DNA from: Candidatus Poribacteria bacterium
GTDB lineage: Bacteria; Poribacteria; WGA-4E; WGA-3G
Assembly: GCA_028824685.1 (NCBI GenBank)
Contig: JAPPCZ010000055.1
Coordinates: forward strand, 4,673 to 68,672
DNA: 64,000 nt
Direction: 5' to 3'
The notes under the pieces were generated by a model. That model was not told where the DNA came from and made no database searches. It saw only the letters and a list, made by a program, of their open reading frames with translations. Positions 6,794 through 62,054 of this stretch are shown piece by piece (position 1 is the first letter of the stretch; the number at the start of each line of letters is the position of its first letter). The position numbers and the translations under genes are program-made.

Positions 6794-6884
6794 TAAATAT
6801 ATTATTTATTGATGCAGGTTACTCGCCTGCTGTAGGAGTAGATGATTTATCTACTCCTAAAAAAACATTAAAAGGAGTAATGAA

Positions 6885-7487: not shown

Positions 7488-7568
7488 ATCTTTTTGTATG
7501 AACTTTCCTGTTGAAGTATCGGGCGGGTGCGTATGCCCGCCCATTATAATTTAAAAACCTGAAATACA

Positions 7569-35488: not shown

Positions 35489-35492
35489 TTAA

Positions 35493-46338: not shown

Positions 46339-47340
46339 ATGGCTAAACAGAAATTAAAATTTGGATTCATCGGATGTGGTGGTAACTCACGGGGGCATGG
46401 ACGTAGTGTTTCAGGTGTTGAAAACGTAGAGATTGTCGCCCTTGCTGACCCAAGCGAAAACGCACTCAAAGGATTTAAAGAGACCGTCGGTTTAGACGAT
46501 TCAATCCCTATCTACGCAGACCATGTTGAAATGTTAACCGCTGCGAAACCAGATGCGGTTGTCATCAGTTCGCCGCACGGGCTGCATTTTGATCATATCA
46601 TGTCTGCGCTTGATGCAGGTTGCCACGTGCATACCGAAAAACCGATGGTGTGCACAGTAGACCACGCAAAACAGGTGATGGCAAAAGTCGAAGAGACCGG
46701 TTTGCATCTGATGATCGGCTACCAGCGTCATTTGAGTCCTACCTATCAATATTGCCGCAAAGTCGTGCAAAGTGGCGAACTTGGCAAAGTGAACTTTGTT
46801 GCTGCCCATCAATCACAGAATTGGTATCGGAATCAGCAAGGGAAATGGCGGCAAGACCCGTTCCTCGGCGGTGGTGGTCAACTGAACGATTCTGGCAGTC
46901 ATCTCATAGACATCCTCCTATGGGTACTTGAAGCAAGCCCAGACACAGTGTTTGCAATGATAGATAATTTGGATATTGAGGTAGATGTCCTTACAGCAAT
47001 GTCAATCAAATTTGATACAGGCGCGCTGTGTAATATCAGTATCGTTGGGCATGCCCATGGTGGTGTCCAAGAAGATTTTTCTATTTGGCTGGAAGATGGC
47101 GCGCTCTTTTTACGCGCGGGGCAATTATACCGTCAAGGGACTGGAGGCAAACCAGAACAGGTTGATGAATCTGAGCTACCTAAAGGCGGTAACAAAGATG
47201 CTGCCTTTATTGAACTTATCCGTGGCGAACGGACAGAGAATCCTATCGGTGTTGAAAACGGATTGCGAGTTATTCAATTAACCGAAGCTGCATGGCAGTC
47301 TGCGGACCTTGGCAGATCTGTCAAGGTTGATCTCAGTTAA
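46339..47340 (+). CDS. Gfo/Idh/MocA-family NAD(P)-dependent oxidoreductase
   Basis: KLKFGFIGCGGNSRGH Rossmann N-terminus; EKPMVCTVDHAKQVM consensus for the family. Confidence 0.85.
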   Translation: MAKQKLKFGFIGCGGNSRGHGRSVSGVENVEIVALADPSENALKGFKETVGLDDSIPIYADHVEMLTAAKPDAVVISSPHGLHFDHIMSALDAGCHVHTEKPMVCTVDHAKQVMAKVEETGLHLMIGYQRHLSPTYQYCRKVVQSGELGKVNFVAAHQSQNWYRNQQGKWRQDPFLGGGGQLNDSGSHLIDILLWVLEASPDTVFAMIDNLDIEVDVLTAMSIKFDTGALCNISIVGHAHGGVQEDFSIWLEDGALFLRAGQLYRQGTGGKPEQVDESELPKGGNKDAAFIELIRGERTENPIGVENGLRVIQLTEAAWQSADLGRSVKVDLS

Positions 47341-47404
47341 GATACTGTGGTTATACGAAATGGAAACAAATACTTATTTTTTGCCTCATAATTAGAGATA
47401 CAAT

Positions 47405-47650
47405 ATGAATCAAAGAGAGGCTCTGTTTGAAAAAGCGCAACAAAACCCAAACGGATTGAAGTATTCCGAGTTTGAACGGCTTATGCGCGGATGTGGATGG
47501 ACGCAACGCCGACAAAGAGGTAGTCATCGGATTTGGTATTCTCCCAAAGGATATAGATTATCAATTCAACCGAACAAGTCAATGGCTAAAGGTTACCAAG
47601 TAAGGCAATTTTTAGCACAATACAACAAGGAAAATGAAGATGAAGAATAA
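47405..47650 (+). CDS. hicA: HicA-family toxin (type II TA)
   Basis: 81 aa. LKYSEFERLMRGCGWTQRRQRGSHRIWYSPKG matches the HicA/YcfA double-stranded-RNA-binding-like fold with the conserved GSH motif. Confidence 0.7.
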   Translation: MNQREALFEKAQQNPNGLKYSEFERLMRGCGWTQRRQRGSHRIWYSPKGYRLSIQPNKSMAKGYQVRQFLAQYNKENEDEE

Positions 47651-47993
47651 TCATGACGATTTTGACGGATTTACTATAAAGATATTTCTTGACGAAGACG
47701 GTGATTATCTCGCTCATTTCATTGAACTTCCAAATGTCTCTGCTTTCGGACCTACGCCTGCACAAGCATTAATTGAATTGAAAACAGCGTGGGAGTTGAT
47801 GAAAGAGTGTTATCAAGAGGATAATGTTCCCATTCCAAAACCACCAGCGCGAGAATTGAATGACGTGCCGTTTAATGTCTCTGTTGATCCACACCTATAT
47901 CACCGCTTAACAGATGAAGCCGCAAAAGCTGGAATGAGTCTCAACGCACTCGTAGAACAGAAATTAGCTGAAACAACAAGTGTTGATACCTGA
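47634..47993 (+). CDS. hicB: HicB-family antitoxin (UPF0150 plus C-terminal RHH-like)
   Basis: Overlaps hicA by 17 nt. FTIKIFLDEDGDYLAHFIELPNVSAFGPTPAQALIELKTAW is a HicB-like RNaseH-fold N-terminus. C-terminal LTDEAAKAGMSLNALVEQKLAE is ribbon-helix-helix-like. Confidence 0.65.
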   Translation: MKMKNNHDDFDGFTIKIFLDEDGDYLAHFIELPNVSAFGPTPAQALIELKTAWELMKECYQEDNVPIPKPPARELNDVPFNVSVDPHLYHRLTDEAAKAGMSLNALVEQKLAETTSVDT

Positions 47994-48021
47994 TGAATAT
48001 GAGCAACTCGGGAGATTTTAA

Positions 48022-48795
48022 TTGCTTGATGTCTACAACCTTAGCAAATCTATTGACAAGAAACCGTTTCTCTCAGAACTCACTTTTCAGGTGGCAGCTG
48101 GGGAGTCTCTCATCCTACTCGGTAGAAATGGTGCTGGAAAAACACTTTTGCTCAACATCTTGGCAACCTTGGTTGAACCGACATCAGGTTCTATTTTTAT
48201 TTCTGGAATAGACGCATTTTCCAACTTGAAACGGGTTCGTCCACACATCGGATATATACCTGTTGATTTTGAAGGATACCCTGAATTATCTGTTGTTGAC
48301 TACCTCCAATTTTTTGCTGCTGCATACAAATTAGAGAAACAGGAACGCACCGCTGCAATTGATGCTGTGATTGAATTGATGGATATTCCGCATCTTCGTG
48401 ACATGAAAATCGGGGCTTTATCAACGGGAGAACGTCAACGACTTCTGTTTGCCAAAACCTTTCTTCATGAACCACAGTTGTGGTTACTTGATGAACCGTT
48501 AGCACCGCTTGACCCACGTGGACAAATTGAGATGGTAGAATTGTTCAATGAACTCCAGATGATGGGAAAAACACTTGTAATCGCTACCAATCGTCTGGAA
48601 GATGTATCAAAACTATGTGGTATAGGAACTGAAACCGAACCAAATACCAATCTTCTCGGTATTCTCAACGATGGAAAGTTCGCTGTATTCAATACAATAA
48701 GGCAAATACAATACGAATTTAAAGTAAAAAATAAGTCAGAAAATCTAAAGCCGAATTGGCTTGCTGAACTCTATTTGGAGGTTACAAAATCATAA
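48022..48795 (+). CDS. ABC transporter ATP-binding protein (orphan, no adjacent permease)
   Basis: Walker A LLGRNGAGKTLLLNIL; signature LSTGERQRL; Walker B LWLLDEPLAPLD. Confidence 0.75.
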   Translation: MLDVYNLSKSIDKKPFLSELTFQVAAGESLILLGRNGAGKTLLLNILATLVEPTSGSIFISGIDAFSNLKRVRPHIGYIPVDFEGYPELSVVDYLQFFAAAYKLEKQERTAAIDAVIELMDIPHLRDMKIGALSTGERQRLLFAKTFLHEPQLWLLDEPLAPLDPRGQIEMVELFNELQMMGKTLVIATNRLEDVSKLCGIGTETEPNTNLLGILNDGKFAVFNTIRQIQYEFKVKNKSENLKPNWLAELYLEVTKS

Positions 48796-49568
48796 TGTCA
48801 GACATTGGACAATTTTTTCATGAAAACGGATACTATTTCGCAAAAGGTGTCTATTCGCCTGAAGAGATCAAATTAATGGAACATGATTTTGACCGTGTGG
48901 TAGACCAGTTGCTCAAAAGCGATGAAAACGTCAATGCACGTTGGGGCGGTAGATTGATGGATGCGCTTGATGGCGGGGAATCTGTTATTATTCATACCCA
49001 TAATATTCAGAGTTTTTCTGCTGTGTGGATGCAGGCATTTCTGCAAGAAAAGTTTCTCAACGTTGCTGAAGATATACTCGGACCAGATATTATGCTCCAC
49101 CATTCTAAACTTTTTTGCAAACCGCCAGAGAAAGGCTCACCCTTTCCGATGCATCAGGATTGGCAGTATTTTCCGTCAGTTAAGGACACGATGATAGCCT
49201 CCATCATATATGTATCGGATGCTACAGATGAGATGGGGTGTGTTCGCGTATACCCAGGTTCTCATAGGGAACTGGGACGAATGGATGGTATGATGGGGAG
49301 AGGAGATAATGAAGAAATTACGGATAGATACCCGATTGAGGATGCTACCGTATTAGAGGCGGAACCGGGGGATGTGCTTTTCTTTAGCTACTTCACACTG
49401 CACGGGTCAATGCCGAACCGTTCAAATAAGACGCGAAAGAGCGTGCTTGTCCAAATGCATGCAGGTGATGATCAGATTGAGGGTGAAAATCGACACACCA
49501 ACGTGAAATTAGTGCTTCGTGGTTGGAATCATTTCGCTACCCGCTCTTCTGTCGGAAGAATTGTATAG
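48795..49568 (+). CDS. PhyH-family Fe(II)/2-oxoglutarate dioxygenase
   Basis: HxD...H facial triad context (PMHQDWQYFP ... RVYPGSHR ... FTLHGSMPNRS) and overall phytanoyl-CoA dioxygenase-like layout. Overlaps the upstream ABC gene stop (ATAATG). Confidence 0.8.
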   Translation: MSDIGQFFHENGYYFAKGVYSPEEIKLMEHDFDRVVDQLLKSDENVNARWGGRLMDALDGGESVIIHTHNIQSFSAVWMQAFLQEKFLNVAEDILGPDIMLHHSKLFCKPPEKGSPFPMHQDWQYFPSVKDTMIASIIYVSDATDEMGCVRVYPGSHRELGRMDGMMGRGDNEEITDRYPIEDATVLEAEPGDVLFFSYFTLHGSMPNRSNKTRKSVLVQMHAGDDQIEGENRHTNVKLVLRGWNHFATRSSVGRIV

Positions 49569-49684: not shown

Positions 49685-50680
49685 ATGATTAAAGTAGCAA
49701 AAATTAGTATGGCGCATGTCCACGCAGGTGGATATGCACGACAGATTCACGAAAACCCCGAAACCGAACTCGTTGCCGTTTGGGACGAGGAAGAATACGG
49801 TGGCAAAGCAGCTGCAGAACAATACGAAGTTCCCTTCTATTCCGACCTTGACGAAATGTTAAGTCGTGATGACGTTGACGCAGTTGCTGTTGATGCAGTT
49901 ACGTCTGACCATCCGCGTGTAATGATCGCCGCTGCTGAAGCTGGCAAACATATCTTCACCGAAAAAGCACTCGCTATCACAGTCGCAGAATGTGATCCGA
50001 TTATTGAGGCAGTTGAAAAAGCAGGCGTGAAGTTTATGATTTCACTACCTTCGCGAGCCAATTCTGAGATTCTATTCGCCAAAAAAGCAATTGATGATGG
50101 ACTACTCGGCGACATAACGTTCGGTAGAGGACGGATTGCACATTCCGCCGCGCTGGATAGCTGGTTCAGCGGCACAAGTGCTTGGTTTGCAGACCCGGTA
50201 CGTGCAGGTGGGGGTGCTCTCTTTGACTTAGGATGTCACCGTGTTGATGTGATTCGTTGGTTGATGGGTGAACCGAAAAGTGCAATCGCGAAGATAAACA
50301 ATTTCACTGGTAACTTCCCAATTGACGACAATAGTGTTTCTGTCGTGGAATTTGCAAACAAAGCACTCGGTGTAATTGATGTTGCATGGACACACCGCTC
50401 TGGTCCGAATATGCTTGAGATTTACGGCACGGAAGGGTCGTTTGCTGCGGGACACGGTGAGATGCATTTCCAAACCCGCAAACTCTCTGATGAAGAGAAA
50501 GCAAAGTACATTGAAGATGCGCCCGCAGCACCACCGTCACCGATGCAGCAGTGGATCAATGCCATCCTCCGCGATGAACCGATGACAATTACAATGCAAG
50601 ATGGACGTAATTTAACAGAGTTGATGCAGGCATTCTATATGTCCTCTGAACAAGGAAAAGCGATAGAATTCCCGCTCTAA
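49685..50680 (+). CDS. Gfo/Idh/MocA-family NAD(P)-dependent oxidoreductase
   Basis: Rossmann N-terminus IKVAKISMAHVHAGGYARQ (atypical); EKALAITVAECDPIIEAVEKAGVKFMI; C-terminal alpha/beta dimerisation domain. RBS aaaggagaa. Confidence 0.8.
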   Translation: MIKVAKISMAHVHAGGYARQIHENPETELVAVWDEEEYGGKAAAEQYEVPFYSDLDEMLSRDDVDAVAVDAVTSDHPRVMIAAAEAGKHIFTEKALAITVAECDPIIEAVEKAGVKFMISLPSRANSEILFAKKAIDDGLLGDITFGRGRIAHSAALDSWFSGTSAWFADPVRAGGGALFDLGCHRVDVIRWLMGEPKSAIAKINNFTGNFPIDDNSVSVVEFANKALGVIDVAWTHRSGPNMLEIYGTEGSFAAGHGEMHFQTRKLSDEEKAKYIEDAPAAPPSPMQQWINAILRDEPMTITMQDGRNLTELMQAFYMSSEQGKAIEFPL

Positions 50681-50787
50681 GTTGCTATATTAAACTCACG
50701 TTATATAACGTGAGTCCGACATAAGAGTTAGAAAAATCCGACACAATTTATCATTTTTATCACAAATTTGATGACGGACATGTTCCT

Positions 50788-50893
50788 GCACTCCAGCGGA
50801 GTGCTATGTGTGATAATATCACATACCGCTCCGCTGGAGCGGAAACACTGGTTCGGATGATTGCTATAAACATATTGCTCCGCTGGAGCAAAG
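50788..50893. repeat. Dispersed repeat family 2, copy 2
   Basis: gcactccagcggagtgctatgtg...acataccgctccgctggagcgg...ctataaacatattgctccgctggagcaaaga; matches 13914-14054 with an internal deletion. Confidence 0.65.
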
Positions 50894-50991
50894 ATGGTGT
50901 TTTGGGTTGCGTTGGAACTATTTTTCGTTCAATTGAATCCACGTGATGAACCAATTTCTTATATCGAACTCAAGTTTATATACTTGGATGT

Positions 50992-51276
50992 GTGAAAGGC
51001 ATGAAAATAAATAAAGACGAACAGGTTACCAGTATATCTCAGGCACTAACTCTGGAGGAGATAGCCGATTATTGGGACACACATAGTTTGGCTGACCACT
51101 GGGATGAAACGCATGCAGTCGATTTTGAGGTTCGGATGCAGCGCAAGTGTCGTGTAACGCTTACCCCAGAGATCTATGAAAAAATTGAAAAGCAAGCGCT
51201 GGAACAGGGAATCTTACCGGAAACTTTGGTTAACTTGTGGTTAGCTGAACGTCTCCAAGCGATGGAATCATCGTAA
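50992..51276 (+). CDS. brnA: BrnA-like (CopG/RHH-type) antitoxin, orphan (no BrnT/DUF497 toxin gene seen upstream)
   Basis: 94 aa. EEIADYWDTHSLADHWDE...VDFEVRMQRKCRVTLTPEIYEKIEKQALEQGI..ETLVNLWLAE fits the BrnA antitoxin family pattern; the assignment is from memory of the family. Confidence 0.5.
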   Translation: MKGMKINKDEQVTSISQALTLEEIADYWDTHSLADHWDETHAVDFEVRMQRKCRVTLTPEIYEKIEKQALEQGILPETLVNLWLAERLQAMESS

Positions 51277-51378
51277 ATGATAGAAAACGCTAAATTTTGT
51301 CAAATGACACACCCATTTAGCGTTGATTTAGCAAATTTTCAGACCAAAATAGGGCAAAAACTTTTGTAAGGAGAATCT

Positions 51379-53547
51379 ATGAAAGCTACCGAAACACCTA
51401 TACTTAGATTTTTACAAGGTCCGAAACAGTTTGTTGTTCCAATTTTTCAACGTAGGTACAGTTGGGAACAAAAACAATGTCAGAAACTCTGGGATGATGT
51501 GCTAAAGGCTGGTGAAAATGATGAGATTAAGTGGCATTTTCTCGGCTCAATTGTATACATGGAACCAGAGGAAGAACAGCATACTGTCAGCATTCCAAGA
51601 CACCAAGTAATTGACGGTCAACAGCGATTAACGACTTTATCGCTCTTATTATTAGCACTCAGCCGTGCAATAAAAGAAGATAGTGACATTGATATAACCC
51701 CGAAACAACTGGTGAATTATTATCTTTTCAACGATGGGGAAAGGGAAGAATTCCGTCACAAACAAGTTCTCACAAAAGGGGATAAAGATACACTCATCTA
51801 TCTGTTGGAGAGTAAAGAAATCCTTCCTCAAGATCCTTCTCCATTTTTGGTAAAGAATTACCGATTTTTTGAAAGGAAAGTCAAAGATGTTGATCTTAAA
51901 ACTTTATATACGGGACTTGGAAAGTTGATGATTGTGGACATCGTTTTGAATCGGGAAGGAGCAAATCCGCAATTGATTTTTGAGAGTCTTAATTCGACTG
52001 GGGTCGAGCTCACAGAAGCAGACAAAATTCGGAACTATGTCCTCATGGGACAACCATTTAGTTTCCAAAATAGACTGCACGAGAATTTTTGGTTTCCTAT
52101 GGAACAGTATTTTGGTAAAAAGGAATACACAAAACGCCTTGACAGTTTCATGCGAGATTATCTCACATTAAAAACTGAGCGGATCCCCACCCGTAAGAAA
52201 ATTTACGAAAAATTTAAAGCATATCTTCCTGAATATATGTTCAACAAGCCAGAAAACGCTGAGCAAATTGTCAGTGAGATTTCACGTTATGGGAAGCACT
52301 ACGTTAACATTACACAGAAAGAAGAAGATCCGGAACTTAAGGTTTGTTTAGAGGATATAAGGGAGCTGCGTGCCGAAGTTGTCTATCCGTTCTTACTTGA
52401 AGTTTATGATTATTATAGACGAGGTGATATAGAGAAATCGGAAGTCATAAAAACGCTTCGATTGGTTGAGAGTTACGTTTTTCGGCGTTCTATATGCGAA
52501 TTGTCAGGTAAATTTCTCAATCATACGTTTGTTAAAATTTTGAAAGAGATGTCTAAGAAGAACATTAAGGATTATATTAAATCTTTTAATGATACTTTAT
52601 TGTTTATGCCCTTTATTAGTCGTTTCCCTAAAGATGATGAATTCAAAGAAGCATTGTTGAAAAAAGACATTTATACTGCTCAGTCTGGTCGCGTCTGCAA
52701 ATATATGCTACGAAAACTGGAGAACTATGGACATAAAGAACCTATCAATGTTGACGACTATACGATTGAACATGTAGTGCCGCAGACACCCACTCCAGAA
52801 TGGCGAAAGGAATTAAGTGAAGACTTTAGCGAAATATATGATAAATTCCTTCACACTATTGGCAACCTTACACTTACCGCTTACAATTCAGAATATAGCA
52901 ATTCTCCTTTCAAAGAGAAACGGGACATGGAAAAAGGATTTTGCCAGAGTCACTTATATTTGAATGAAAGTCTTGCACGTGCAGAACAATGGAACTTATC
53001 TGCTATCCTAACAAGAGCAAAGTTACTTGCAGAGAAAGCTTGCGAAATCTGGATTTATCCTGAAGTCGACGATGATCTATCTATTGAGAGGAACGATAAT
53101 TTTCCATCTTCTCAACAAAAACTTGCTGCTACAACGAGTGTAACAACAGCCGGATATGGCACATCTTCAAATTCAACTTCCATGGCTGACTGGTCGGAAT
53201 GGGAACAAGAATTAGGTTGGATTATCATTGAGATGCTTGAGTATAAGGATCCTGCAGGTTTAATGATATTTGAACCAAGGGATATTCAAGATTATTATCC
53301 TCGGCTAAAAGAAAAGTGGCCGAATAATAATAGTATAAGTGAAACTGTAAGTAAGATGTTGGGTTCATTGGTAAATCGTGGAGAACTTGAAAAGCCAAAC
53401 TGGGGCGAATATAGGCTTGTTGAAGGTGAGCTTTTGCATCTTCATTTAAAACTGCGAATTGCAGAAAAAGAACTTACAAAGAACAAGCAAAAATCCGCTG
53501 AGTTAGAAGATAAACTTACTGAATTGGAAGACGAACTTACTGAGTAA
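51379..53547 (+). CDS. GmrSD-like DUF262/DUF1524 nuclease (type IV restriction / BrxU-like defence protein) with C-terminal wHTH-like and coiled-coil extension
   Basis: N-terminal DUF262/ParB-like: FVVPIFQRRYSWEQKQCQKLWDD, GSIV, IDGQQRLTTLSLLLLAL. C-terminal DUF1524 His-Me finger: DDYTIEHVVPQTP...FLHTIGNLTLTAYNSEYSNSPFKEK. Tail LEDKLTELEDELTE is coiled coil. RBS taaggagaa. Confidence 0.75.
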   Translation: MKATETPILRFLQGPKQFVVPIFQRRYSWEQKQCQKLWDDVLKAGENDEIKWHFLGSIVYMEPEEEQHTVSIPRHQVIDGQQRLTTLSLLLLALSRAIKEDSDIDITPKQLVNYYLFNDGEREEFRHKQVLTKGDKDTLIYLLESKEILPQDPSPFLVKNYRFFERKVKDVDLKTLYTGLGKLMIVDIVLNREGANPQLIFESLNSTGVELTEADKIRNYVLMGQPFSFQNRLHENFWFPMEQYFGKKEYTKRLDSFMRDYLTLKTERIPTRKKIYEKFKAYLPEYMFNKPENAEQIVSEISRYGKHYVNITQKEEDPELKVCLEDIRELRAEVVYPFLLEVYDYYRRGDIEKSEVIKTLRLVESYVFRRSICELSGKFLNHTFVKILKEMSKKNIKDYIKSFNDTLLFMPFISRFPKDDEFKEALLKKDIYTAQSGRVCKYMLRKLENYGHKEPINVDDYTIEHVVPQTPTPEWRKELSEDFSEIYDKFLHTIGNLTLTAYNSEYSNSPFKEKRDMEKGFCQSHLYLNESLARAEQWNLSAILTRAKLLAEKACEIWIYPEVDDDLSIERNDNFPSSQQKLAATTSVTTAGYGTSSNSTSMADWSEWEQELGWIIIEMLEYKDPAGLMIFEPRDIQDYYPRLKEKWPNNNSISETVSKMLGSLVNRGELEKPNWGEYRLVEGELLHLHLKLRIAEKELTKNKQKSAELEDKLTELEDELTE

Positions 53548-53568
53548 AACCAACAAAGGAAACATATC

Positions 53569-56064
53569 ATGAAAGACTATCAACCTATATCTCTTACCGA
53601 TTTATGTAATGTAGACGCAGAAATAATCGGTGCAAACACAACGCCAACCTTGGGACAGCAAACATTTCACGGACTTCCCTTCCACATCTCCGAAGGCGAA
53701 AAATGTTTCTTAGGTTTCGGTGAAGGTGTCCATACAGACTCCATCCAAATTCCAATCAATTCTAATCCAAAGCGGGTTATCATAGTACATCGGCTGCTTG
53801 AGTCCCGCATCCATGAAGGTGAACCGATTGGAAAACTTATTGCCAATTATGTTTTCCACTACGCCGATGGCGAAAAGGAAAGTGTTCCAATTCGTGAACG
53901 TTTTGAGATTGGCAGCGTGCCGCAGGGATGGGGACAACAGACCTTCATTGCTGTCCCTGATACCAAAGAAGGTTTGCATGCTCGGCATCAAGGGCCGTGG
54001 GGTTCTGCCGGACAACGTCAAACAGAGGCAACGCAGTGTGTTCCGCGCAACTACTATCTATGGATATGGAAAAATTCCAATCCTGATGTTGAGGTGACAT
54101 CAATAGAAATTCAGCCGCAGGAACGTAAGTTTATCGTAGCGGCGATTACGCTCGGTTACCTTGATGAGGATCCAATCCCGCGGCACCCGAACCGTGAGGT
54201 TAAAATCACACTTCCGCAAGCAGAAGATGCTGACAAACCGTTTGACATGGAAGTGAATGTTGACCGTGGCACTGCGACTTATCCGTATCCGTTGCCAGAA
54301 AATCCATCCGATGCATTTATGAATGACGATTTCAAAGGATGGGGAGAATTCCAAAATAACAAAAGCAGCCCTGCATATACTGAGATATCCGCGACACCAT
54401 CCGCGACCGTTGAAATTAAAAATCAAGGTGAAACGCTTGGCAATGTCAACTGGGGAGAGCTTCAAGAAAGTGGAAGTGTCCAACCGAATGAACGGGTCAA
54501 GATAGAAGTCATTGATACTGGCAGAAACTGGGTACATACCACCGTGATTGACGAAGACACGAATAAGCCCGTGCCGTGTCGTATCCACTTTCGTTCACAG
54601 CACGGTGTGCCGTACGCCCCGCATGGACACCACGCACATGTCAATTCAAACATGGGCACGTGGCACATAGACGTCGGTGGTGATGTGCGGCTGGGTCAGA
54701 TTAGTTATGCTTATATTGATGGCACATGTCAGGGATGGTTACCTCGCGGTGATGTTATCGTTGATATTGCGCGCGGCTTTGAATATACGCCTTTGCGGAC
54801 CACCGTCAACATTAAACCCGGACAACGCGAGTTGAACCTGCGGATAAAACGGTGGTGCGATATGAACGCCGAACGCTATTTTAGCGGCGACACACACGTC
54901 CACTTCCTTTCAACACAAGGCGCACATACCGAAGCACAAGGTGAAGACCTTGGCGTTGTCAATCTTCTCCTTTCGCAGTGGGGGCATCTCTTCACAAATA
55001 CAGAGGAATTCATCGGAAGACCGACGGTTTCTGCCGATGGAAGAAGCATTGTCTATGCCACGCAGGAGAACAGGCAACATGTGCTTGGACATCTTACGCT
55101 GCTCGGTTTAAAGGAACAGGTGGCACCGTGGTGTTCGGATGGACCGGGTGAGGCAGAACTTGGCGGAAACCTGGAGGTCACGCTCTCGCATTGGGCAGAT
55201 GCATGCCATGCACAAGGCGGCACCGTAGTTCTACCGCACATTCCTAATCCAAATTGCGAACCTGCAACGCTCATCGCTACAGGGCGCGTTGACGCTGTTG
55301 AATATCTCACTAACGCGATGTATGGACATATTGAATATTACCGTTATCTCAACTGTGGATATAAATTACCCCTTGTCGGTGGCACAGACAAGATGACAGC
55401 GGATGTGCCAGTAGGTGTTTATAGAACGTATGTTCATATCCCCGAAAATGAAGAATTCAACTACGACAACTGGTGCAAATATATGAGTGCTGGTAATACG
55501 TTTCTCAGCGGCGGTCCAATGATTCGCCTTACCGTAAATGGACAACCGATAGGCAGTACTATTAACCTACCCGGTAACGGCGGCACTGTTGAAGTTGAAG
55601 CATCCGCTGATTCCATCTTCCCCATTCATACTTTACAAATTGTGCAAGCAGGAGAAGTTGTTGCCTCTACAGAGGAAAACAACGGATCACACAAGTTACG
55701 CCTTAAAGCAAATCTAAAAGTTGATAAACATTCGTGGATTGCTGCTCGATGTGGTGGGCCAAACTACGCAGAAGCAGTTCCACATCACGATGGGTGGCGG
55801 CGTGGCATCATCGCACACACGTCTCCAATTTACGTCGCTGTCGGTGGCGAATGGTGGATGTTCGATCCAGAAACGGCAAACTATATGCTCACCTTGATTG
55901 AAGGTGGATTGTCCTATATTCAACAATCAGCACGCCACCATGAACCCGGCACGGTTACGCACCATCACGGTGAGGAGGATCATCTGGAATACCTTTCTCG
56001 TCCGTTCCAAGAGGCACGAGAGGCGATTCACCGTCGCATGCATCAATTGGGCATTCCACATTAA
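53569..56064 (+). CDS. Large hypothetical protein (831 aa) with a C-terminal PHP/CehA-McbA-like metal-dependent phosphoesterase/hydrolase motif
   Basis: Separated from the upstream GmrSD-like gene by only 21 bp. C-terminal half contains YFSGDTHVHFLSTQG (HxH metal motif), VVLPHIPNPN and further His/Asp-rich segments. The N-terminal half has no recognisable family. Confidence 0.4.
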   Translation: MKDYQPISLTDLCNVDAEIIGANTTPTLGQQTFHGLPFHISEGEKCFLGFGEGVHTDSIQIPINSNPKRVIIVHRLLESRIHEGEPIGKLIANYVFHYADGEKESVPIRERFEIGSVPQGWGQQTFIAVPDTKEGLHARHQGPWGSAGQRQTEATQCVPRNYYLWIWKNSNPDVEVTSIEIQPQERKFIVAAITLGYLDEDPIPRHPNREVKITLPQAEDADKPFDMEVNVDRGTATYPYPLPENPSDAFMNDDFKGWGEFQNNKSSPAYTEISATPSATVEIKNQGETLGNVNWGELQESGSVQPNERVKIEVIDTGRNWVHTTVIDEDTNKPVPCRIHFRSQHGVPYAPHGHHAHVNSNMGTWHIDVGGDVRLGQISYAYIDGTCQGWLPRGDVIVDIARGFEYTPLRTTVNIKPGQRELNLRIKRWCDMNAERYFSGDTHVHFLSTQGAHTEAQGEDLGVVNLLLSQWGHLFTNTEEFIGRPTVSADGRSIVYATQENRQHVLGHLTLLGLKEQVAPWCSDGPGEAELGGNLEVTLSHWADACHAQGGTVVLPHIPNPNCEPATLIATGRVDAVEYLTNAMYGHIEYYRYLNCGYKLPLVGGTDKMTADVPVGVYRTYVHIPENEEFNYDNWCKYMSAGNTFLSGGPMIRLTVNGQPIGSTINLPGNGGTVEVEASADSIFPIHTLQIVQAGEVVASTEENNGSHKLRLKANLKVDKHSWIAARCGGPNYAEAVPHHDGWRRGIIAHTSPIYVAVGGEWWMFDPETANYMLTLIEGGLSYIQQSARHHEPGTVTHHHGEEDHLEYLSRPFQEAREAIHRRMHQLGIPH

Positions 56065-56119: not shown

Positions 56120-57094
56120 ATGCCAAAAGAATTAGTAGCAGTTGCCCCGCGGCAACCCGTTTTGCAAGAATATGAAGATGGTCCTGTTTCTGCCGATAGC
56201 GTCCGTGTCCAAGTCGAATTCGGTGCCCCGAAACGCGGCACCGAACTGACTGCGTACTACGGATACAACAACCCAAATTTTCCACTGAGACTTGGAAATA
56301 TGTGTGTCGGAAAAATTATTGAAATTGGCGATAATGTGGATGGCTTTGAGATTGGAGAACGTGTCGCCAACCACGGACACCTCAAGGAGACGCACACGTG
56401 GCGCGCGGGAAGTGTCCTTAAAATGCCCAACCACATGACGTGGAAAGAGGCAGTCTGCTATGATCCAGCACACTTCGCAATGTCCGCAATTCGCGATGGA
56501 AAAGTCCGTGTTGGCGAACGAGTTGCTGTCTTTGGACTTGGTGCAATTGGGTTGATGACAGTGCAAATGGCACGGATCGCTGGGGCTGACTTCGTCGCTG
56601 CCGTAGACCCGCTTGAAAGACGGCGGAAAGTTGCTGAAAAGACTGGAGCGGAACTTGTCATTGATCCAACTGCCTGCAATGTCGGTGAGGTGCTTAAAGA
56701 AGCGACTGGCGGACTTGGCGTTGATGTGGCTGTAGAAACAAGCGCAGTTTACGAAGCACTTGATGATGCCCTTCGCAGCGTCACTTTTGAAGGAACAATC
56801 GTCTACGCTGGACGCGCGAAAGCGTGTACTGGAGGACTTGACCTCGGTGCTGTTGCGCATGTCAACATTCCGAATATAATCTTTGCGCGTGCCAACAGCG
56901 ATCCGAATCGCGACCACCCTCGTTGGAATTTCCGACGTATCGTTGATACTTGTTGGAAGTGGCTTGTCGAAGGACGATTTGAATGTGAAGATGTTGTTGA
57001 TCCCGTTGTGCCGTTTGAAGATTCTGTAGAGGCTTATATTGAGATGGACAACCACCCTGAACGGAGTGTCAAGTTAGGCGTCTCTTTCAAATAA
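56120..57094 (+). CDS. Medium-chain dehydrogenase/reductase (zinc-type alcohol/polyol dehydrogenase-like) family protein
   Basis: GERVAVFGLGAIGLMTVQMARIAGADFVAAVDPLERRRKVAEKTGAELVIDP is the MDR Rossmann nucleotide-binding segment. RBS aaggagagaaaggag. Confidence 0.7.
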   Translation: MPKELVAVAPRQPVLQEYEDGPVSADSVRVQVEFGAPKRGTELTAYYGYNNPNFPLRLGNMCVGKIIEIGDNVDGFEIGERVANHGHLKETHTWRAGSVLKMPNHMTWKEAVCYDPAHFAMSAIRDGKVRVGERVAVFGLGAIGLMTVQMARIAGADFVAAVDPLERRRKVAEKTGAELVIDPTACNVGEVLKEATGGLGVDVAVETSAVYEALDDALRSVTFEGTIVYAGRAKACTGGLDLGAVAHVNIPNIIFARANSDPNRDHPRWNFRRIVDTCWKWLVEGRFECEDVVDPVVPFEDSVEAYIEMDNHPERSVKLGVSFK

Positions 57095-57180
57095 TACAAA
57101 ACTTGTAGAACTTCTGTACCCTGTCATATTCTATTGAATGCGTTGTATTTCAGCCAATGGTTCTGCTGTGGAGGAGAAAA

Positions 57181-60170
57181 TGAACAAATTAATTTCTGTT
57201 GTAGTTGCAATCCTTATGTTTTCTTCTTGTGGAAATCCAGAGAAACCAGCTACTGAAAAATCAACTACAATAGTAGAACGCGATTTCACTATCAACACTG
57301 CTACAGAGATTGGACATGAATTTGGTGAAGGGGAATTACGTGTATCAAAATTAAAGAATCTATTGGCATTAGACTCCTTGAGTTTTTCGCAGACAAAAAT
57401 GATTCCCGATGCTATGCGTGTCCTGTTTGTAAATGTCGCTGCCCGATACGACGGAAAAATGTTCCAATTTCCACTCACTGTGGGAAAAACTTGGAAATAT
57501 AGATGGGATGGAGAAACACAAATAACCATTGAAAACCCTGAAGATATTGAAATTGCTGCTGGGACTTTCCCGAATTGTCTCAAGCATAAATCTGTATTGA
57601 TAGGTGCAGATAACGGAACAGAATTGGAACACGCTCTTATTAACGGCACACGCTATCTTTGGTTTGCCAAGGGAGTCGGATTAGTGAAAATGCGGTATGA
57701 ACATTCAAACGGGATCATTACTGAAGCTGAATTGATTGAACATAATTTAGCCAAACAAAGTAAAGACTACTTCCCCGTCAGTTTAGGCTCGACTTGGACT
57801 TACAAGTGGAAGAATAACTATTACAACGAGGTATTTTTTGAAAATGTAACAGTTGGCGAAAATCGCAGCAAAGCTAATCTCTATAAAGGAAAACATGAAC
57901 TCAAAGTGATAGTTTCATCTGAAAATGGTGAAATGTTGGGGCAAAGAGATTTTTATGTCGATAAAACAAAAAGGCATTTAGGATTGCGGCAGTCAAGTTC
58001 AAGACAGGGAATAAAATCGAGTCAAACAGTTCCGAATACAACCAGTTTATTCTTTGGCATGATTGGCTATTTCTATGGTGTTGAAATCTTCAAGTTTCCT
58101 ATAACAGTTGGAAAATCATGGACATACCAAGGGCCAATTGGTTCAGAGGCACATGTAACTGTAGAACCGTATGAACAGGTTGAGTTATCAACAGGCACTT
58201 ACCAGAAATGCCTAAAACATAAAACTGTCTTTAAGGGTGAATCCTCTGACACTGATACTGATACCGATTTAGTTAATGGCACCCGCTATTTATGGTTTGC
58301 AAAAGGGGTAGGTTTGGTAAAGATGCGATATGAACATTCAAACGGAACTGTCACCGAAGCTGAATTGATTGAATACAGTGTGCAGGGAAAAAGCGAAGAA
58401 TACTTACCACTGAATCTCGATACTACTTGGACCTATAAATGGCAAAATGACTATTTCAAACCGATAATAGAAAAAATAAAAGTGGTTGAAGCTGGAAGCG
58501 GTCATGAAACACCTTTTCAAAAAGCACAATATACAGTAATTATTTCTGACGACCAACCTGGAGAAGCACAGGTTGTTTGCAAGTTGACACCAAAAAAATT
58601 GAGTGGAAAGAAAATTCGGTTACGCACCGATGGTCGTGGATATTATATTCCAAGTCATACTGTAAAGATAAAGGATTCCTCCAATAGAATCCCGAATCGT
58701 CGGTCAGGCAATTGGGAGTACGAATTTCGTAAACCATACAAATCTCCTCTAACACTAACCTACAATGTATCCCTAAAACATGATGAAGAAACAAGGGGAT
58801 ATTTGGAATCACGCGAAGGATCAAAGTCTGAACGTGATACTGCAACATTTCCTTATCTTAGACCAGACTGCACGTTTTGGACAGGTTATCACTTATTTAT
58901 AATTGGTGGGACAAATCCTGATATTGAAGTGGAATTTGACCTCCCGAAAGGGTGGCGTGTTTCAACGCCTTGGAAACGTCTTGGTAAAACGCGAAATAAG
59001 TTTTCTGTCAAAAACCAGAGAGAGTTAACGGACTCTGCGATTCTGATTGGTCAGCATGCTGAAGGCGTAGCAAAATTGGGTAAGACTGAGGTGATGCTTG
59101 CTGTTGGTGGTAACTTGAAAACATCAATAGATAAGATGCAGAATACCACATCAAATTTTTTAAACAAATATGCAGAAATGTTTAATGGCGGTCCGACTCA
59201 GCCAGTTCTGTTTATCATTAATCCTTTTGAAGATTTACGAATGGATCGACTTAAAGGTCGTGCCATAGGATATAGTGTCAGTATTCTGATGAACAGCAAT
59301 TTAGATGAAGAAACTAAACACCTGTGGGGTCCATTCTTAGGACATGAGGTATTTCATATCTGGAACGGTATTACAGCATTAAAGCAATTTAGCCTGAAGG
59401 AACATTGGTTTCTTGAAGGTATCACCAGTTATTACACAGAAATTGCATCGGTTGACATGGGGTACATTACAGAGCAAGAATTTTTTGAGCGGTTAGAACG
59501 GACATGTGAATCATATTTGTCTTCCTCTTCCGATGCAACTATCGGAGGAAGTTCAAAAACATCCGCGCTGGGTTATAATGGAGGAAGTGTAACTGCTATA
59601 TCCCTGGACCTACAAATTCGTCATCTTACGGAGAATAGGAAACATTTAGATCACGTCATGCAGCAACTTTATCAAAAATTTGGTAACATTCAGAAAAAAT
59701 ACACACAGCGTGATGTCATTGATGCTGTCAATAAGGTGTCCAAAGAAAATTTTGAACCGTTCTTCAAAACCTATGTCACAGGAAAAGAGCGTTTCCCACT
59801 CTCTGAATATTTCAACTATGCAGGTTTAGATGTACAGATAGAATACAGCGAGGAATTACCTACAACCGATTATATAATTGATGTGCTTAAAACAAGTTTA
59901 CAGAAAGAAAAGTGGCGTTTGATCTCTGTAAACGGTGTAAAAGTTAATGCATTTGCTGACCTTCGCGAAAGTGCGAAAAGCTGGAAATCTGGGGACGCAC
60001 TAACGGTAACAATCGAAGAAAATGATGAAACACTCACTCTACCCGTCACACTAAGTGGAATTTTCGATAATCCACCAACGACAAGAGATGTAAGTGTCCG
60101 TATCACTAAAAAGGCAGAAACAAATCGGTTACAACGCGCTATTTTAGCAGGCATTTTAGGAAACAATTAA
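57181..60170 (+). CDS. Lipoprotein metallopeptidase, M61 (glycyl aminopeptidase)-like HExxH domain plus C-terminal PDZ, with an internally duplicated N-terminal region
   Basis: Lipobox ILMFSSCG (start at MNKLISV; the track ORF begins at 57138). Two homologous about 220-aa N-terminal modules (GTFPNCLKHKSVL...NGTRYLWFAKGVGLVKMRYEHSNGIITEAELIEHN / GTYQKCLKHKTVF...NGTRYLWFAKGVGLVKMRYEHSNGTVTEAELIEYS). Zinc site GHEVFHIWNG. C-terminal PDZ-like WRLISVNGVKVNAFADLRESAKSWKSGDALTVTIE. Confidence 0.6.
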
Positions 60171-61193: not shown

Positions 61194-62054
61194 ATGACGA
61201 ACTTACCCACAATATCCATTGCATCACATCGCATCACACGCCTTATAATCGGTGGTAATCCGTATAGCGGCATCTCGCATCAATCGCCTGCTGCATCCAA
61301 AACGATGGAGGATTACTATACGACACACCAAATTATGGCGGACCTCGCACAAGCAGAGCAGAACGGAATTAACACCGTGCTTGCCCGTGCAGACAAACAC
61401 ATCATGCGAACGCTCAACGAATATTGGAACGCAGGCGGCACAATCCAGTGGATTGCCCAAACGCCAAAGTCGACAGAATATGGCAATCTCAACGACTACC
61501 TCAAGATTATCGCACACTACAAACCAATTGCCATTTATCATCACGGTGGCACCACTGATCAGTTATATGCGGAAGGCAAACTTGATTCACTTTGCGGTAG
61601 TCTCAAACGTATCCGTGACCTCGGATGTGCAGTCGGTATCGGCACGCACGATCCACAAATCCTTAAATACTGCTACACAGAAGGATATGATGTTGACTTT
61701 TACGTTTGTGCATTATATAATCATACTCGGCATAGGGAATTATATCTGCCAGATGACCGTGACTCAGCAGTTGCTACCATTCAAGCAATACCGCTGCCTA
61801 TCATTGCCATAAAAGTCTTAGCGGCAGGTAGAAATGAACCTTATAATGCCTTTCAGTTTGCACTTGAAAACATAAAACCGATTGACGCGATGGCGGTTGG
61901 GATGTATACCCAATTTCAGCCTGACCAGATTCGTCAAAACGCGCTGACTGTCGCTAAACTTATCAGGGAATTAGAGAATGAACCGAATTGTAGAACCAGA
62001 AGTGATGGACACAGTGGAAGCCGCCGAGGCTTACGATGCGATGGAACACGGTGA
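61194..62054 (+). CDS. Hypothetical protein (286 aa), no recognised family
   Basis: ORF immediately follows the lipoprotein gene (TAA then ATG) and has coding-like composition. The 3' end overlaps the next gene by 77 nt, so the true stop or the downstream start may differ. Confidence 0.35.
   Translation: MTNLPTISIASHRITRLIIGGNPYSGISHQSPAASKTMEDYYTTHQIMADLAQAEQNGINTVLARADKHIMRTLNEYWNAGGTIQWIAQTPKSTEYGNLNDYLKIIAHYKPIAIYHHGGTTDQLYAEGKLDSLCGSLKRIRDLGCAVGIGTHDPQILKYCYTEGYDVDFYVCALYNHTRHRELYLPDDRDSAVATIQAIPLPIIAIKVLAAGRNEPYNAFQFALENIKPIDAMAVGMYTQFQPDQIRQNALTVAKLIRELENEPNCRTRSDGHSGSRRGLRCDGTR

What the first reader, a model, noticed from the sequence alone, without database searches (positions are those of the whole stretch)
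50681..56064. Defence-like islet: orphan BrnA antitoxin, GmrSD-like DUF262/DUF1524 nuclease, and a tightly coupled 831-aa protein with a PHP-like HxH metal motif
A BrnA-type antitoxin (50992-51276) is followed by a 722-aa DUF262 (DGQQR) plus DUF1524 (His-Me finger) protein with a coiled-coil tail. This architecture is that of GmrSD type IV restriction enzymes and BrxU. Just 21 bp downstream is an 831-aa protein whose C-terminal half carries GDTHVHF and further His-rich segments reminiscent of PHP/CehA-McbA metallophosphoesterases; its N-terminal half is unassignable. The short spacing argues for co-transcription. If the large protein is functionally coupled to the GmrSD-like nuclease, this would be an undescribed two-component defence configuration. 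The downstream genes are metabolic, so the large protein could equally belong to the oxidoreductase cluster.
Basis: inference. Interest (0 to 1): 0.6.

Follow-up and report, generated by a model that had tools for sequence, protein, structure and literature searches.

The report
Restriction gene inserted into metabolic operon
A stand-alone GmrSD-type restriction enzyme and a leftover antitoxin sit in a fast-changing insertion slot inside a conserved Poribacteria metabolic operon, and the 831-aa hydrolase next to them belongs to that operon, not to a new two-part defence system.

Summary
They are a BrnA-like antitoxin (50992-51276), a 722-aa GmrSD-family protein with intact DGQQR and EH..N motifs (51379-53547), and, 21 bp downstream, an 831-aa protein whose C-terminal half is a CehA/McbA-type PHP metallohydrolase (53569-56064).

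In 72 Candidatus Poribacteria genomes the backbone Gfo/Idh/MocA-ABC-PhyH-Gfo/Idh/MocA-[slot]-831aa-Zn-ADH is conserved. The slot ranges from 22 to 6808 bp. Only 2 of the 72 hold a GmrSD, and 20 have the flanking genes under 100 bp apart.

Other genomes fill the same slot with BrnT/BrnA, a 1600-aa PDC-S37/Hhe-like helicase-nuclease, DNA methyltransferases, transposases, or TPR and GNAT proteins. Empty-site genomes align up to the Gfo2 stop and again from 3-16 bp before the 831-aa ATG, which delimits a 2.86-kb indel of low GC (37% against 48-50%). Six family members in unrelated gene neighbourhoods, including Planctomycetota, Caldilineae and Latescibacteria, have no GmrSD neighbour.

The GmrSD is best read as a single-gene restriction enzyme of the HEC-06/DndI/SspE/BrxU kind. 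This is a new member of a known kind, of modest interest. The operon-embedded defence and toxin-antitoxin hot spot is the only mildly novel aspect.

The parts
49685..50680 (+). Gfo/Idh/MocA oxidoreductase ('Gfo2'). This conserved operon gene forms the left flank of the variable slot.
   Evidence: Pfam GFO_IDH_MocA plus its C-terminal domains. Orthologue at 86-99% aa identity in 72 Poribacteria loci, always upstream of the 831-aa gene.
50689..53552 (.). The 2.86-kb segment absent from empty-site genomes. It is the slot content in this genome: spacer, BrnA and GmrSD.
   Evidence: blastn against L001 and L078 (empty slots): homology ends at window 50680-50688 and resumes at 53553-53566. GC is 37.4% for GmrSD against 47.8-50.4% for the flanking operon genes.
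50681..50991 (.). Non-coding spacer where BrnT lies in other genomes. It contains REP-like palindromic repeats (50791-50889).
   Evidence: No BrnT remnant. Inverted repeat 50791-50810 / 50820-50839 plus a third arm at 50870-50889. The motif occurs 3 times in the window against 0.01 expected. It occurs 16 times in 6 of 80 loci against 0.76 expected. The spacer is 81% identical to the same position in L003.
50992..51276 (+). Orphan BrnA-like (CopG/RHH) antitoxin gene, a remnant of a BrnT/BrnA module.
   Evidence: Weak HMM hits. Orthologue in 24 of 72 slots at 84-92% identity. It is preceded by BrnT in 8 of the loci and in L090.
51379..53547 (+). GmrSD-family DUF262 + DUF1524 nuclease (722 aa), read as a single-gene restriction enzyme. 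DUF262 is at 51406-52041, DGQQR at 51613-51627, DUF1524 at 52624-53034, EHVVP at 52768-52782. The winged-helix-like plus long-helix tail is at 53179-53544.
   Evidence: Foldseek hits: DndI E 5e-16, SspE 1e-12, BrxU 1e-5.
53338..53568 (+). GmrSD 3' end plus the 21-bp spacer. This segment persists as a scar upstream of the 831-aa gene in genomes whose slot now holds PDC-S37.
   Evidence: blastn to L003 and L073 resumes at 53338. tblastn of the tail finds remnants in L003, L006, L008, L014, L025, L073 and L080. Junction alignment.
53569..56064 (+). 831-aa CehA/McbA-type PHP metallohydrolase with N-terminal beta-sandwich modules. It is a conserved operon gene and the right flank of the slot. The PHP-type domain is at 54874-55836 and GDTHVHF at 54886-54906.
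56120..57094 (+). Zn-dependent alcohol dehydrogenase, a conserved operon gene downstream of the 831-aa gene.
   Evidence: Pfam ADH_zinc_N and ADH_N. It follows the 831-aa gene in 67 of the 72 loci, with a median gap of 84 bp.
46339..49568 (+). Upstream part of the same conserved operon: Gfo/Idh/MocA (46339-47340), ABC ATPase (48022-48795) and PhyH dioxygenase (48795-49568). A HicA/HicB module (47405-47993) is inserted at the first junction.
   Evidence: Pfam. Synteny in 62-66 loci. HicAB is present in only a few of them.

Best explanation
The region is a composite of two unrelated things.

(1) A conserved Poribacteria catabolic operon. Its order is Gfo/Idh/MocA, ABC ATPase, PhyH dioxygenase, Gfo/Idh/MocA, the 831-aa PHP-type CehA/McbA metallohydrolase and a Zn-ADH, with a divergent TonB-dependent receptor. 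Within it the 831-aa protein is a cytoplasmic metal-dependent hydrolase acting on an unidentified small-molecule ester, carbamate or phosphoester.

(2) A variable insertion slot at the Gfo2|831aa junction. In this genome it carries an orphan BrnA antitoxin, left after BrnT was lost, and a stand-alone GmrSD-family enzyme.

The GmrSD most likely acts alone. Its DUF262 domain (DGQQR) binds and hydrolyses NTP and gates the DUF1524 His-Me-finger nuclease (EH..N), which nicks or cleaves foreign DNA that carries, or lacks, a particular modification. The winged-helix-like and long-helix tail probably adds DNA binding or dimerisation.

The slot turns over quickly. Cargo is gained, lost and swapped, probably by recombination through the conserved flanks. 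The cargo lies on the operon strand, so it is probably transcribed with the operon.

Shown: gene identities, motifs, folds, synteny, indel breakpoints, the scar and the turnover. Inferred: nuclease specificity, read-through transcription, the recombination mechanism and the substrate of the 831-aa enzyme.
For: Synteny and slot size:
- In 72 genomes the slot is 22-6808 bp (median 210). 20 are under 100 bp. GmrSD is present in 2 and BrnA in 24.
- The breakpoints lie at the Gfo2 stop and 3-16 bp before the 831-aa ATG.

Alternative cargo in the same slot:
- PDC-S37/Hhe-like protein of 1600 aa (1949 bits) in 8 genomes.
- D12 and N6_N4 DNA methyltransferases.
- DDE transposases, TPR and GNAT proteins, and BrnT.

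Turnover:
- At least 28 slot-state changes occur on a tree of 73 genomes, and the nearest relative of the window (L001) has an empty slot.
- L002 has 96% identity in the 831-aa protein but only 54% in its GmrSD.
- A GmrSD 3' scar sits in 7 PDC-S37 loci.
- GmrSD GC is 37% against 48-50% for the flanks.

The 831-aa family without GmrSD:
- 6 members in unrelated gene neighbourhoods have no DUF262 neighbour.
- The family is large and keeps its full-length architecture.
- It has no PADLOC hit.

GmrSD on its own:
- Domains and motifs are intact and invariant.
- The fold matches DndI, SspE and BrxU.
- HEC-06, a related single-gene GmrSD-like protein, defends alone and needs its DGQQR and EH residues (bioRxiv 10.1101/2024.01.29.577857).
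- Relatives at 55-58% identity sit at a different locus without the 831-aa gene.

Transcription:
- No +-strand terminator-like site was found between Gfo2 and the 831-aa gene.
Against: - The closest GmrSD relatives (75-86% identity: P0121, P0122, P0124) all lie directly upstream of an 831-aa orthologue. Within this small clade the pair is therefore always adjacent. I read this as inheritance of one old insertion at a fixed site, but adjacency alone cannot exclude a clade-specific interaction.
- The closest solved relatives (DndI, SspE) are sensors of host phosphorothioation, not classical type IV enzymes, so the specificity is open.
- The consensus promoter and terminator scans are not calibrated for Poribacteria.
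- All genomes compared are MAGs or metagenome contigs. Mis-assembly at a variable site is conceivable, although many are complete long-read chromosomes.
- Some slot cargo (TPR, GNAT) is not defence-related.
Confidence: 0.85

Rival explanations
1. One reading: the GmrSD-like nuclease and the 831-aa PHP protein form a co-transcribed two-component defence system.
For: - Both genes are on the same strand with a 21-bp spacing and no predicted terminator between them.
- In all six loci seen with a GmrSD of this clade (window, L002, L009, L088, L089, L090) it lies upstream of the 831-aa gene.
Against: - 70 of 72 Poribacteria genomes keep the 831-aa gene without GmrSD, including the window's nearest relative.
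- The same position is occupied by unrelated genes or by nothing.
- The 831-aa gene is conserved at 81-96% identity regardless of slot content.
- Six family members in unrelated gene neighbourhoods lack any DUF262 neighbour.
- GmrSD relatives occur elsewhere without it.
- There is no PADLOC hit.
- The GC contrast is 37% against 49%.
- The 21-bp junction persists after the GmrSD is deleted.
Confidence: 0.03
2. The GmrSD-like protein is not a modification-dependent (type IV) enzyme. Instead it is a phosphorothioate-sensing effector like DndI or SspE, working with a Dnd or Ssp modification system encoded elsewhere in the genome. Host PT marks switch it off, and unmodified foreign DNA is nicked.
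For: - The best solved relative by sequence is DndI (9jfl, E 7e-9), followed by SspE.
- The best fold matches are DndI at E 5e-16 and SspE at 1e-12, ahead of BrxU at 1e-5.
- PADLOC SspE models hit at 1e-23.
- DndI and SspE share the DUF262/DGQQR plus HNH architecture (PMC11662687).
Against: - No DndB-E or SspB-D hit was found among the 41 other large ORFs of the 64-kb window. The only hit is a generic IscS-like cysteine desulfurase.
- No dnd or ssp gene lies next to the GmrSD in L002, L009, L088, L089 or L090.
- Identity to DndI is only about 16%.
- PADLOC HEC-06 (single-gene, 219 bits) and mREase_IV (110 bits) score higher than SspE (81 bits).
Confidence: 0.15
3. BrnA and the GmrSD form a functional pair, with BrnA acting as a transcriptional regulator or antitoxin of the nuclease.
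For: - BrnA lies 102 bp upstream of the GmrSD on the same strand.
- BrnA precedes the GmrSD in the window, L002, L009 and L090.
Against: - BrnA occurs in 24 of 72 slots, and 22 of those have no GmrSD.
- It pairs with BrnT in 8 loci.
- L089 has the GmrSD preceded by an FGE-sulfatase gene and a 63-aa ORF instead of BrnA.
- BrnA also precedes PDC-S37 in L003, L006, L008, L073, L079 and L080. It is therefore a resident of the slot's left edge, not a partner of a particular cargo.
Confidence: 0.05

Closest known systems
HEC-06 (single-gene GmrSD-like defence protein; Payne et al., bioRxiv 10.1101/2024.01.29.577857) and the PADLOC 'Orf5' DUF262/DUF1524 models
   Same: Single polypeptide of DUF262 (DGQQR) plus DUF1524 (EH..P His-Me finger). 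It aligns end to end with the PADLOC models over residues 11-558 (Orf5 552 bits, HEC-06 219 bits). HEC-06 protects on its own, and its DGQQR and EH mutants lose protection.
   Different: The window protein has an extra tail of about 160 aa: a disordered linker, a winged-helix-like module and a long helix. The models do not cover it. It sits inside a metabolic operon rather than embedded in an Hma system. No activity has been tested. The tool output does not say which system PADLOC's 'Orf5' belongs to.
DndI and SspE (phosphorothioate-sensing DUF262/HNH nickases; PDB 9jfl, 6jiv, 7drs)
   Same: They are the closest solved structures by sequence and fold. They share the same two-domain architecture and the same DGQQR and HNH motifs.
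   Different: Identity is only 15-17%. No dnd or ssp modification genes lie in the neighbourhood or elsewhere in the window. SspE is 771 aa with a different C-terminal region.
GmrSD and BrxU type IV restriction enzymes (Eco94GmrSD; BrxU PDB 7p9k)
   Same: Same Pfam families, GmrSD_N and GmrSD_C. It is a nucleotide-dependent nuclease and a stand-alone gene.
   Different: BrxU is a weaker fold match (E 1e-5). No BREX genes are nearby. Specificity for modified DNA is untested.
CehA and McbA carbamate hydrolases (PHP-like metallohydrolases of about 770-790 aa)
   Same: The NCBIfam CehA_McbA_metalo domain scores above its cut-off. The HxH motif and further invariant His and Asp residues are present. 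The fold is PHP. Essential histidines in the PHP-like domain are reported for McbA and CehA (PMC8292978).
   Different: This is a domain-level match only. The substrate is unknown. The window protein lies in a conserved chromosomal operon of sponge symbionts, not on a transposon or plasmid for pesticide degradation. Whether its N-terminal beta-sandwich half resembles that of CehA or McbA was not compared.
Defence islands and hot spots flanked by core genes (a general concept, cited from my own knowledge of work on core-genome defence hot spots in Pseudomonas, Vibrio and E. coli)
   Same: A fixed chromosomal position between conserved genes holds alternative defence, TA and mobile cargo in related genomes, with rapid turnover.
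   Different: The slot lies within an operon, between two co-oriented metabolic genes only 22-56 bp apart when empty. No integrase or tRNA is present. Every cargo family with a family assignment is co-oriented with the operon. Some cargo is not defence-related.

Membership tests
GmrSD family (DUF262 + DUF1524 nucleases) | N-terminal DUF262/ParB-like domain above the Pfam threshold | tested here: met
   PF03235 GmrSD_N at 120.5 bits against a 33.2-bit cut-off, residues 10-221.
GmrSD family (DUF262 + DUF1524 nucleases) | DGQQR nucleotide-hydrolysis motif | tested here: met
   DGQQR at residues 79-83. It aligns to the DGQQR of SspE and DndI and is invariant in 35 homologues.
GmrSD family (DUF262 + DUF1524 nucleases) | C-terminal DUF1524 His-Me finger with (D/E)H...N | tested here: met
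   PF07510 GmrSD_C at 99.9 bits against a 23-bit cut-off. E464, H465, P468, N496 and N503 are invariant and align to SspE TIEHVAPQ / IGNLTLL.
GmrSD family (DUF262 + DUF1524 nucleases) | Overall fold like solved members | tested here: met
   Foldseek hits: DndI E 4.8e-16 (TMt 0.56), SspE 9.5e-13, BrxU 1.2e-5. Model pLDDT 78.5.
GmrSD family (DUF262 + DUF1524 nucleases) | Modification-dependent DNA cleavage and phage protection | not testable with these tools
   Needs enzymology and plaque assays.
PT-sensing Dnd/Ssp effectors (DndI, SspE) | Linkage to dndBCDE or sspABCD modification genes | tested here: not met
   No DndB-E or SspB-D hit in 41 other ORFs of the window; only an IscS-like protein. 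None lies next to the GmrSD in five related loci. The whole genome was not available.
BrxU (BREX-associated GmrSD) | Location in a BREX locus | tested here: not met
   The flanking genes are metabolic. PADLOC finds no Brx or Pgl hit in the window ORFs scanned.
BrnT/BrnA type II toxin-antitoxin | Antitoxin scores above the family cut-off | tested here: not met
   CopG_antitoxin 22.6 bits against 28; BrnA_antitoxin_add 24.1 bits against 60.
BrnT/BrnA type II toxin-antitoxin | Adjacent upstream BrnT toxin gene | tested here: not met
   No BrnT in the window. It is present upstream of the orthologous BrnA in L008, L012, L015, L019, L030, L031, L055, L067 and L090. The window therefore holds a remnant, not a complete module.
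CehA/McbA family metallohydrolase (PHP-like) | NCBIfam NF038032 domain above its cut-off | tested here: met
   138 bits against 80, residues 436-756, model positions 1-314 of 315.
CehA/McbA family metallohydrolase (PHP-like) | HxH and further metal-ligand His, Asp and Glu residues conserved | tested here: met
   D441, H443, H445, E500, H504, H508, H547, H557, D607, H739, D741 and H750 are invariant in 35 homologues at 63-88% identity.
CehA/McbA family metallohydrolase (PHP-like) | PHP fold | tested here: met
CehA/McbA family metallohydrolase (PHP-like) | Carbamate or ester hydrolase activity | not testable with these tools
   Needs biochemistry; the substrate is unknown.
   2 of 72 Poribacteria loci and 0 of 6 members in unrelated gene neighbourhoods. 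GmrSD relatives occur without the 831-aa gene.
Core-flanked defence hot spot | Alternative defence or mobile cargo at one position between conserved flanks | tested here: met
   The cargo seen is GmrSD, PDC-S37/Hhe, two MTase types, BrnTA and DDE transposases, and some slots are empty. At least 28 state changes occur on the tree.
Core-flanked defence hot spot | Recognisable integration machinery (integrase, tRNA, att sites or target-site duplication) | tested here: not met
   No target-site duplication or flanking repeat was found at the breakpoints. No integrase was seen in the slot cargo; the only mobility genes are DDE transposases in L009.

The most novel reading that the evidence does not exclude
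The junctions of this conserved Poribacteria catabolic operon act as integrase-free docking sites. Defence and toxin-antitoxin genes found there include GmrSD, PDC-S37/Hhe, methyltransferases, BrnTA, HicAB, MNT/HepT and MazF-like modules. They would be inserted co-directionally, ride on the operon's transcription, and be swapped between lineages by recombination through the conserved flanking genes. Operon-embedded 'defence slots' would then be a general feature of sponge-symbiont genomes.
Probability: 0.35. Interest if true: 0.45.

Novelty: new member of a known kind. Interest (0 to 1): 0.25.

Why it matters
- **No new defence system.** This removes a tempting false lead. Tight spacing and shared strand here reflect an insertion into an operon, not a new two-gene defence system.
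- **What the genes are.** The GmrSD is another member of a very large family (more than 8000 relatives) with an unusual winged-helix-like and long-helix tail.
- **An uncharacterised enzyme family.** The 831-aa protein belongs to a large, architecturally conserved CehA/McbA-type hydrolase family. Members at 63-66% identity are named by their sources as Latescibacteria, Planctomycetota, Chloroflexi and Chthonomonadaceae. Its natural substrate in sponge symbionts is unknown and may be worth biochemical study.
- **Operon-embedded cargo.** Four junctions of one metabolic operon carry exchangeable defence or TA cargo across about 70 Poribacteria genomes. This fits reports that sponge symbionts are enriched in defence genes (PMC5649159 and PMC5099237, titles and abstracts only). 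It also offers a convenient natural system for studying defence-gene turnover without mobile-element machinery.

Tried and rejected
- Sequence searches of the 831-aa protein, and of a 35-sequence profile, against PDB sequences found nothing meaningful.
- Pfam on the 831-aa protein gave only sub-threshold PD40 and Cupredoxin hits, which I disregard.
- The search for a BrnT remnant in the window was negative.
- I looked for target-site duplications or flanking repeats at the indel boundaries. Only short, probably chance, repeats were found, plus the REP-like palindrome, which is not at the boundaries.
- The promoter and terminator scan gave fewer promoter-like sites than shuffles and only minus-strand terminator-like sites. 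It is not informative for a phylum with unknown promoter rules.
- The first literature search term, 'CehA/McbA', was rejected by the tool.
- I could not establish which system PADLOC's 'Orf5' belongs to. The term does not occur in the DndI paper.
- BrnA as a GmrSD partner was considered and rejected on co-occurrence counts.


Full report
**Observation**

The ORFs are exactly as described, all on the + strand:
- a 94-aa ORF at 50992-51276
- a 722-aa ORF at 51379-53547
- an 831-aa ORF at 53569-56064, 21 bp downstream
- a 324-aa ORF at 56120-57094

Pfam and NCBIfam identify the neighbours as Gfo/Idh/MocA (46339-47340), HicA/HicB (47405-47993), an ABC ATPase (48022-48795), PhyH (48795-49568), a second Gfo/Idh/MocA (49685-50680) and a Zn-ADH (56120-57094).

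The 722-aa protein carries GmrSD_N (1.3e-34) and GmrSD_C (1.5e-28). It matches PADLOC models 'Orf5' (3e-166), HEC-06 (3e-65), mREase_IV and SspE.

The 831-aa protein has no Pfam family above threshold. It does match NCBIfam CehA_McbA_metalo at 138 bits (cut-off 80) over residues 436-756. PADLOC has no hit for it.

The 94-aa protein is only weakly BrnA/CopG-like and falls below both cut-offs.

**Whose partner is the 831-aa gene?**

A scan of one genome per species found 130 relatives. The best 80 loci are all Candidatus Poribacteria, with 81-96% protein identity. I mapped the window's proteins onto these loci with tblastn.

This shows a conserved backbone: TonB-dependent receptor (minus strand), then Gfo1, ABC, PhyH, Gfo2, a variable slot, the 831-aa gene and the ADH.

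In the 72 loci that contain both Gfo2 and the 831-aa gene, the slot measures 22-6808 bp, with a median of 210 bp:
- 20 loci are under 100 bp, so the two operon genes are effectively adjacent.
- 9 loci are 3 kb or more.
- A GmrSD is present in only 2 of the 72. L002 has a 563-aa form at 54% identity. L009 has a 742-aa form at 62%.
- BrnA is present in 24.

**What else occupies the slot**
- A 1580-1607-aa protein with DUF4011, AAA_11/12, an MTES_1575 REase domain and DUF3320. It matches PADLOC PDC-S37 at 1949 bits (also Hhe) and occurs in 8 genomes.
- A D12-class DNA methyltransferase (L075) and an N6_N4 DNA methyltransferase (L008).
- Two DDE transposases (L009).
- TPR, GNAT and several unassigned proteins.
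- A 94-aa BrnT toxin (PF04365, above cut-off) directly upstream of BrnA, recovered as a called ORF in 7 genomes here and found by tblastn in 8.

Every cargo family with a family assignment lies on the operon strand.

**Breakpoints and composition**

Empty-site genomes (L001, L078) align with the window up to 50680-50688, which is the Gfo2 stop. They align again from 53553-53566, which is 3-16 bp before the 831-aa ATG. The stretch 50689-53552 is therefore a clean 2.86-kb indel.

The GmrSD gene has 37.4% GC (GC3 33%). Gfo2 has 47.8%, the 831-aa gene 48.6% and the ADH 50.4%. The window as a whole is 42.2%.

**Turnover**

I built a neighbour-joining tree from the 831-aa and Gfo2 DNA of 73 genomes. 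On it the slot state needs at least 28 changes. The window's nearest relative (L001, 90.6% nt identity) has an empty slot. L002 has an 831-aa protein 96% identical to the window's but a GmrSD only 54% identical.

Seven of the eight PDC-S37-bearing loci retain a remnant of the long GmrSD's C-terminal tail just upstream of the 831-aa gene; in L003 and L008 it includes the stop codon and the 21-bp spacer. The short spacing is thus a fossil junction of an old insertion that survives even when the GmrSD body has been replaced.

**Reciprocal tests**

Six 831-aa family members at 64-77% identity were examined in unrelated gene neighbourhoods. Three are named Planctomycetota, Caldilineae and Latescibacteria by their sources; the other three have no source name. 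None has a DUF262 neighbour. Their contexts are:
- an Opp-type ABC transporter
- three Gfo/Idh/MocA genes
- a BCCT transporter with a TonB receptor
- creatininase and peptidase genes
- housekeeping genes (two cases)

The family has 602 clusters (at 50% identity) at E <= 1e-30. The full-length architecture is kept down to about 31-35% identity.

On the GmrSD side, the nearest relatives (75-86% identity) all sit in the same Poribacteria slot (L088-L090). That fits inheritance of one insertion. Relatives at 55-58% identity lie at a different locus (PhyH, an AAA_17/Nuc_deoxyrib_tr protein, GmrSD, then RimK and GT4) without the 831-aa gene. One of these is in the same genome as L040, whose slot holds no GmrSD.

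**What the proteins are**

*GmrSD.* DGQQR (79-83), EHVVP (464-468) and GNLTL..N (495-503) are invariant in 35 homologues. They align with the SspE and DndI motifs. The AF2 model (pLDDT 78.5) shows four parts:
- a core at residues 1-560
- a disordered linker at 564-600
- a three-helix plus hairpin module at about 601-680, which looks winged-helix-like
- a long helix at 683-721

Foldseek ranks DndI first (E 5e-16), then SspE (1e-12) and BrxU (1e-5). HEC-06 is a single-gene GmrSD-like protein that protects on its own. It loses protection when its DGQQR or EH residues are mutated. DndI and SspE, in contrast, sense host phosphorothioation.

The rest of the window holds no DndB-E or SspB-D gene, only an IscS-like cysteine desulfurase. 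None of the related loci has such neighbours either. I therefore favour a stand-alone restriction enzyme and keep the PT-sensing reading at about 15%.

The HxH motif and further His, Asp and Glu residues are invariant. A second His-rich loop (HGHHAH, 352-357) is conserved but poorly modelled. CehA and McbA are carbamate-ester hydrolases whose PHP-domain histidines are essential (PMC8292978).

I saw no obvious N-terminal signal-peptide-like stretch when reading the sequence; no predictor was run. I infer a cytoplasmic metal-dependent hydrolase in a conserved catabolic operon. Its substrate is unknown.

**Verdict**

The islet is real and defence-like, but it consists of BrnA and GmrSD only. The 831-aa gene is the right-hand flank of an insertion slot, not a defence partner.

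The GmrSD is a new member of a known kind. The mildly novel aspect is that junctions of one metabolic operon serve as exchangeable slots for defence and TA genes across Poribacteria.

Noticed in passing
window 47405-47993: A HicA/HicB toxin-antitoxin pair is inserted at the Gfo1|ABC junction of the same operon. In 63 related loci this junction has a median length of 65 bp. HicAB is present in only a few of them (L002, L069, L078, L080), and HicB alone in L004 and L023.
   Followed up: partly
L001-L080, junctions PhyH|Gfo2 and P831|ADH (e.g. L014:3131-3481, L079:2016-2360, L030:12952-13356): Other junctions of the operon also carry variable cargo. The ORF cluster of the MNT-type nucleotidyltransferase has 15 members at PhyH|Gfo2, and that of its HepT partner 7. 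The PemK/MazF-like toxin cluster (7 members) and a 119-150-aa partner ORF cluster (6 members) lie at P831|ADH. Other cargo includes a 916-aa WD40 protein (L065) and a BCCT transporter (L079). L015 and L068 carry a minus-strand block of FG-GAP, TPR and FGE-sulfatase genes. In the window itself these two junctions are short (116 and 55 bp).
   Followed up: partly
window 50791-50889; also 13917-14049: A REP-like palindromic repeat (CTCCAGCGGAG ... CTCCGCTGGAG, with 20-nt arms) occupies the place where BrnT lies in other genomes and recurs at about 14.0 kb. The 11-mer occurs 16 times in 6 of 80 related loci against 0.76 expected. These include the same slot position in L003, L073 and L079.
   Followed up: partly
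L003, L006, L008, L014, L025, L073, L079, L080 (e.g. L073:4978-9801): A 1580-1607-aa protein with DUF4011, an SF1 helicase, an MTES_1575 REase domain and DUF3320 occupies the same slot in 8 Poribacteria genomes. It matches PADLOC candidate PDC-S37 at 1949 bits and also Hhe. In L008 it is split into two ORFs (1049 and 545 aa), possibly a pseudogene.
   Followed up: partly
L002:9310-9912 and L036:9461-9937: In L002 the short (563-aa) GmrSD is followed by a separate 200-aa ORF with a charged helical C-terminus and no family hit. L036 keeps that ORF together with a GmrSD C-terminal fragment. This may be an unfused counterpart of the tail that is fused in the window's 722-aa protein, but no sequence similarity between the two was detected.
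   Followed up: no
window 34298-42879: Six consecutive +-strand ORFs of 391-674 aa lie here. Seven ORFs in the window match WD40 beta-propeller families. These are eukaryote-like repeat proteins in tandem.
   Followed up: no
window 57138-60170: The 1010-aa protein downstream of the ADH contains an internal duplication: '...NGTRYLWFAKGVGLVKMRYEHSNG..TEAELIE..' occurs twice, about 200 residues apart. It has only faint Peptidase_M61 and PDZ-like signals. Related loci carry zero, one or two tandem copies at 39-95% identity (L008, L017 and L020 have two).
   Followed up: no
window 53569-56064, residues 340-380: The N-terminal half of the 831-aa hydrolase has a second cluster of invariant histidines (H340, H352, H355, H366; HGHHAH at 352-357). 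They lie in a loop that AlphaFold models with very low confidence (pLDDT 30-45). This may be a second metal site or a substrate-gating loop.
   Followed up: no
window 61194-62631: The 286-aa ORF and the following 217-aa methyltransferase-like ORF overlap by 77 nt. A similar overlap recurs in many related loci (e.g. L001 16276-17133 / 17060-17710), so it is conserved rather than a sequencing artefact.
   Followed up: no
L091 and L092 (GmrSD at 6001-7674 / 6001-7692): GmrSD relatives at 55-58% identity occupy a second conserved position in two different contigs of one sample. The order there is Peptidase_S49, PhyH, an AAA_17/Nuc_deoxyrib_tr protein, GmrSD, small ORFs, RimK and GT4. This may be another slot.
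   Followed up: no
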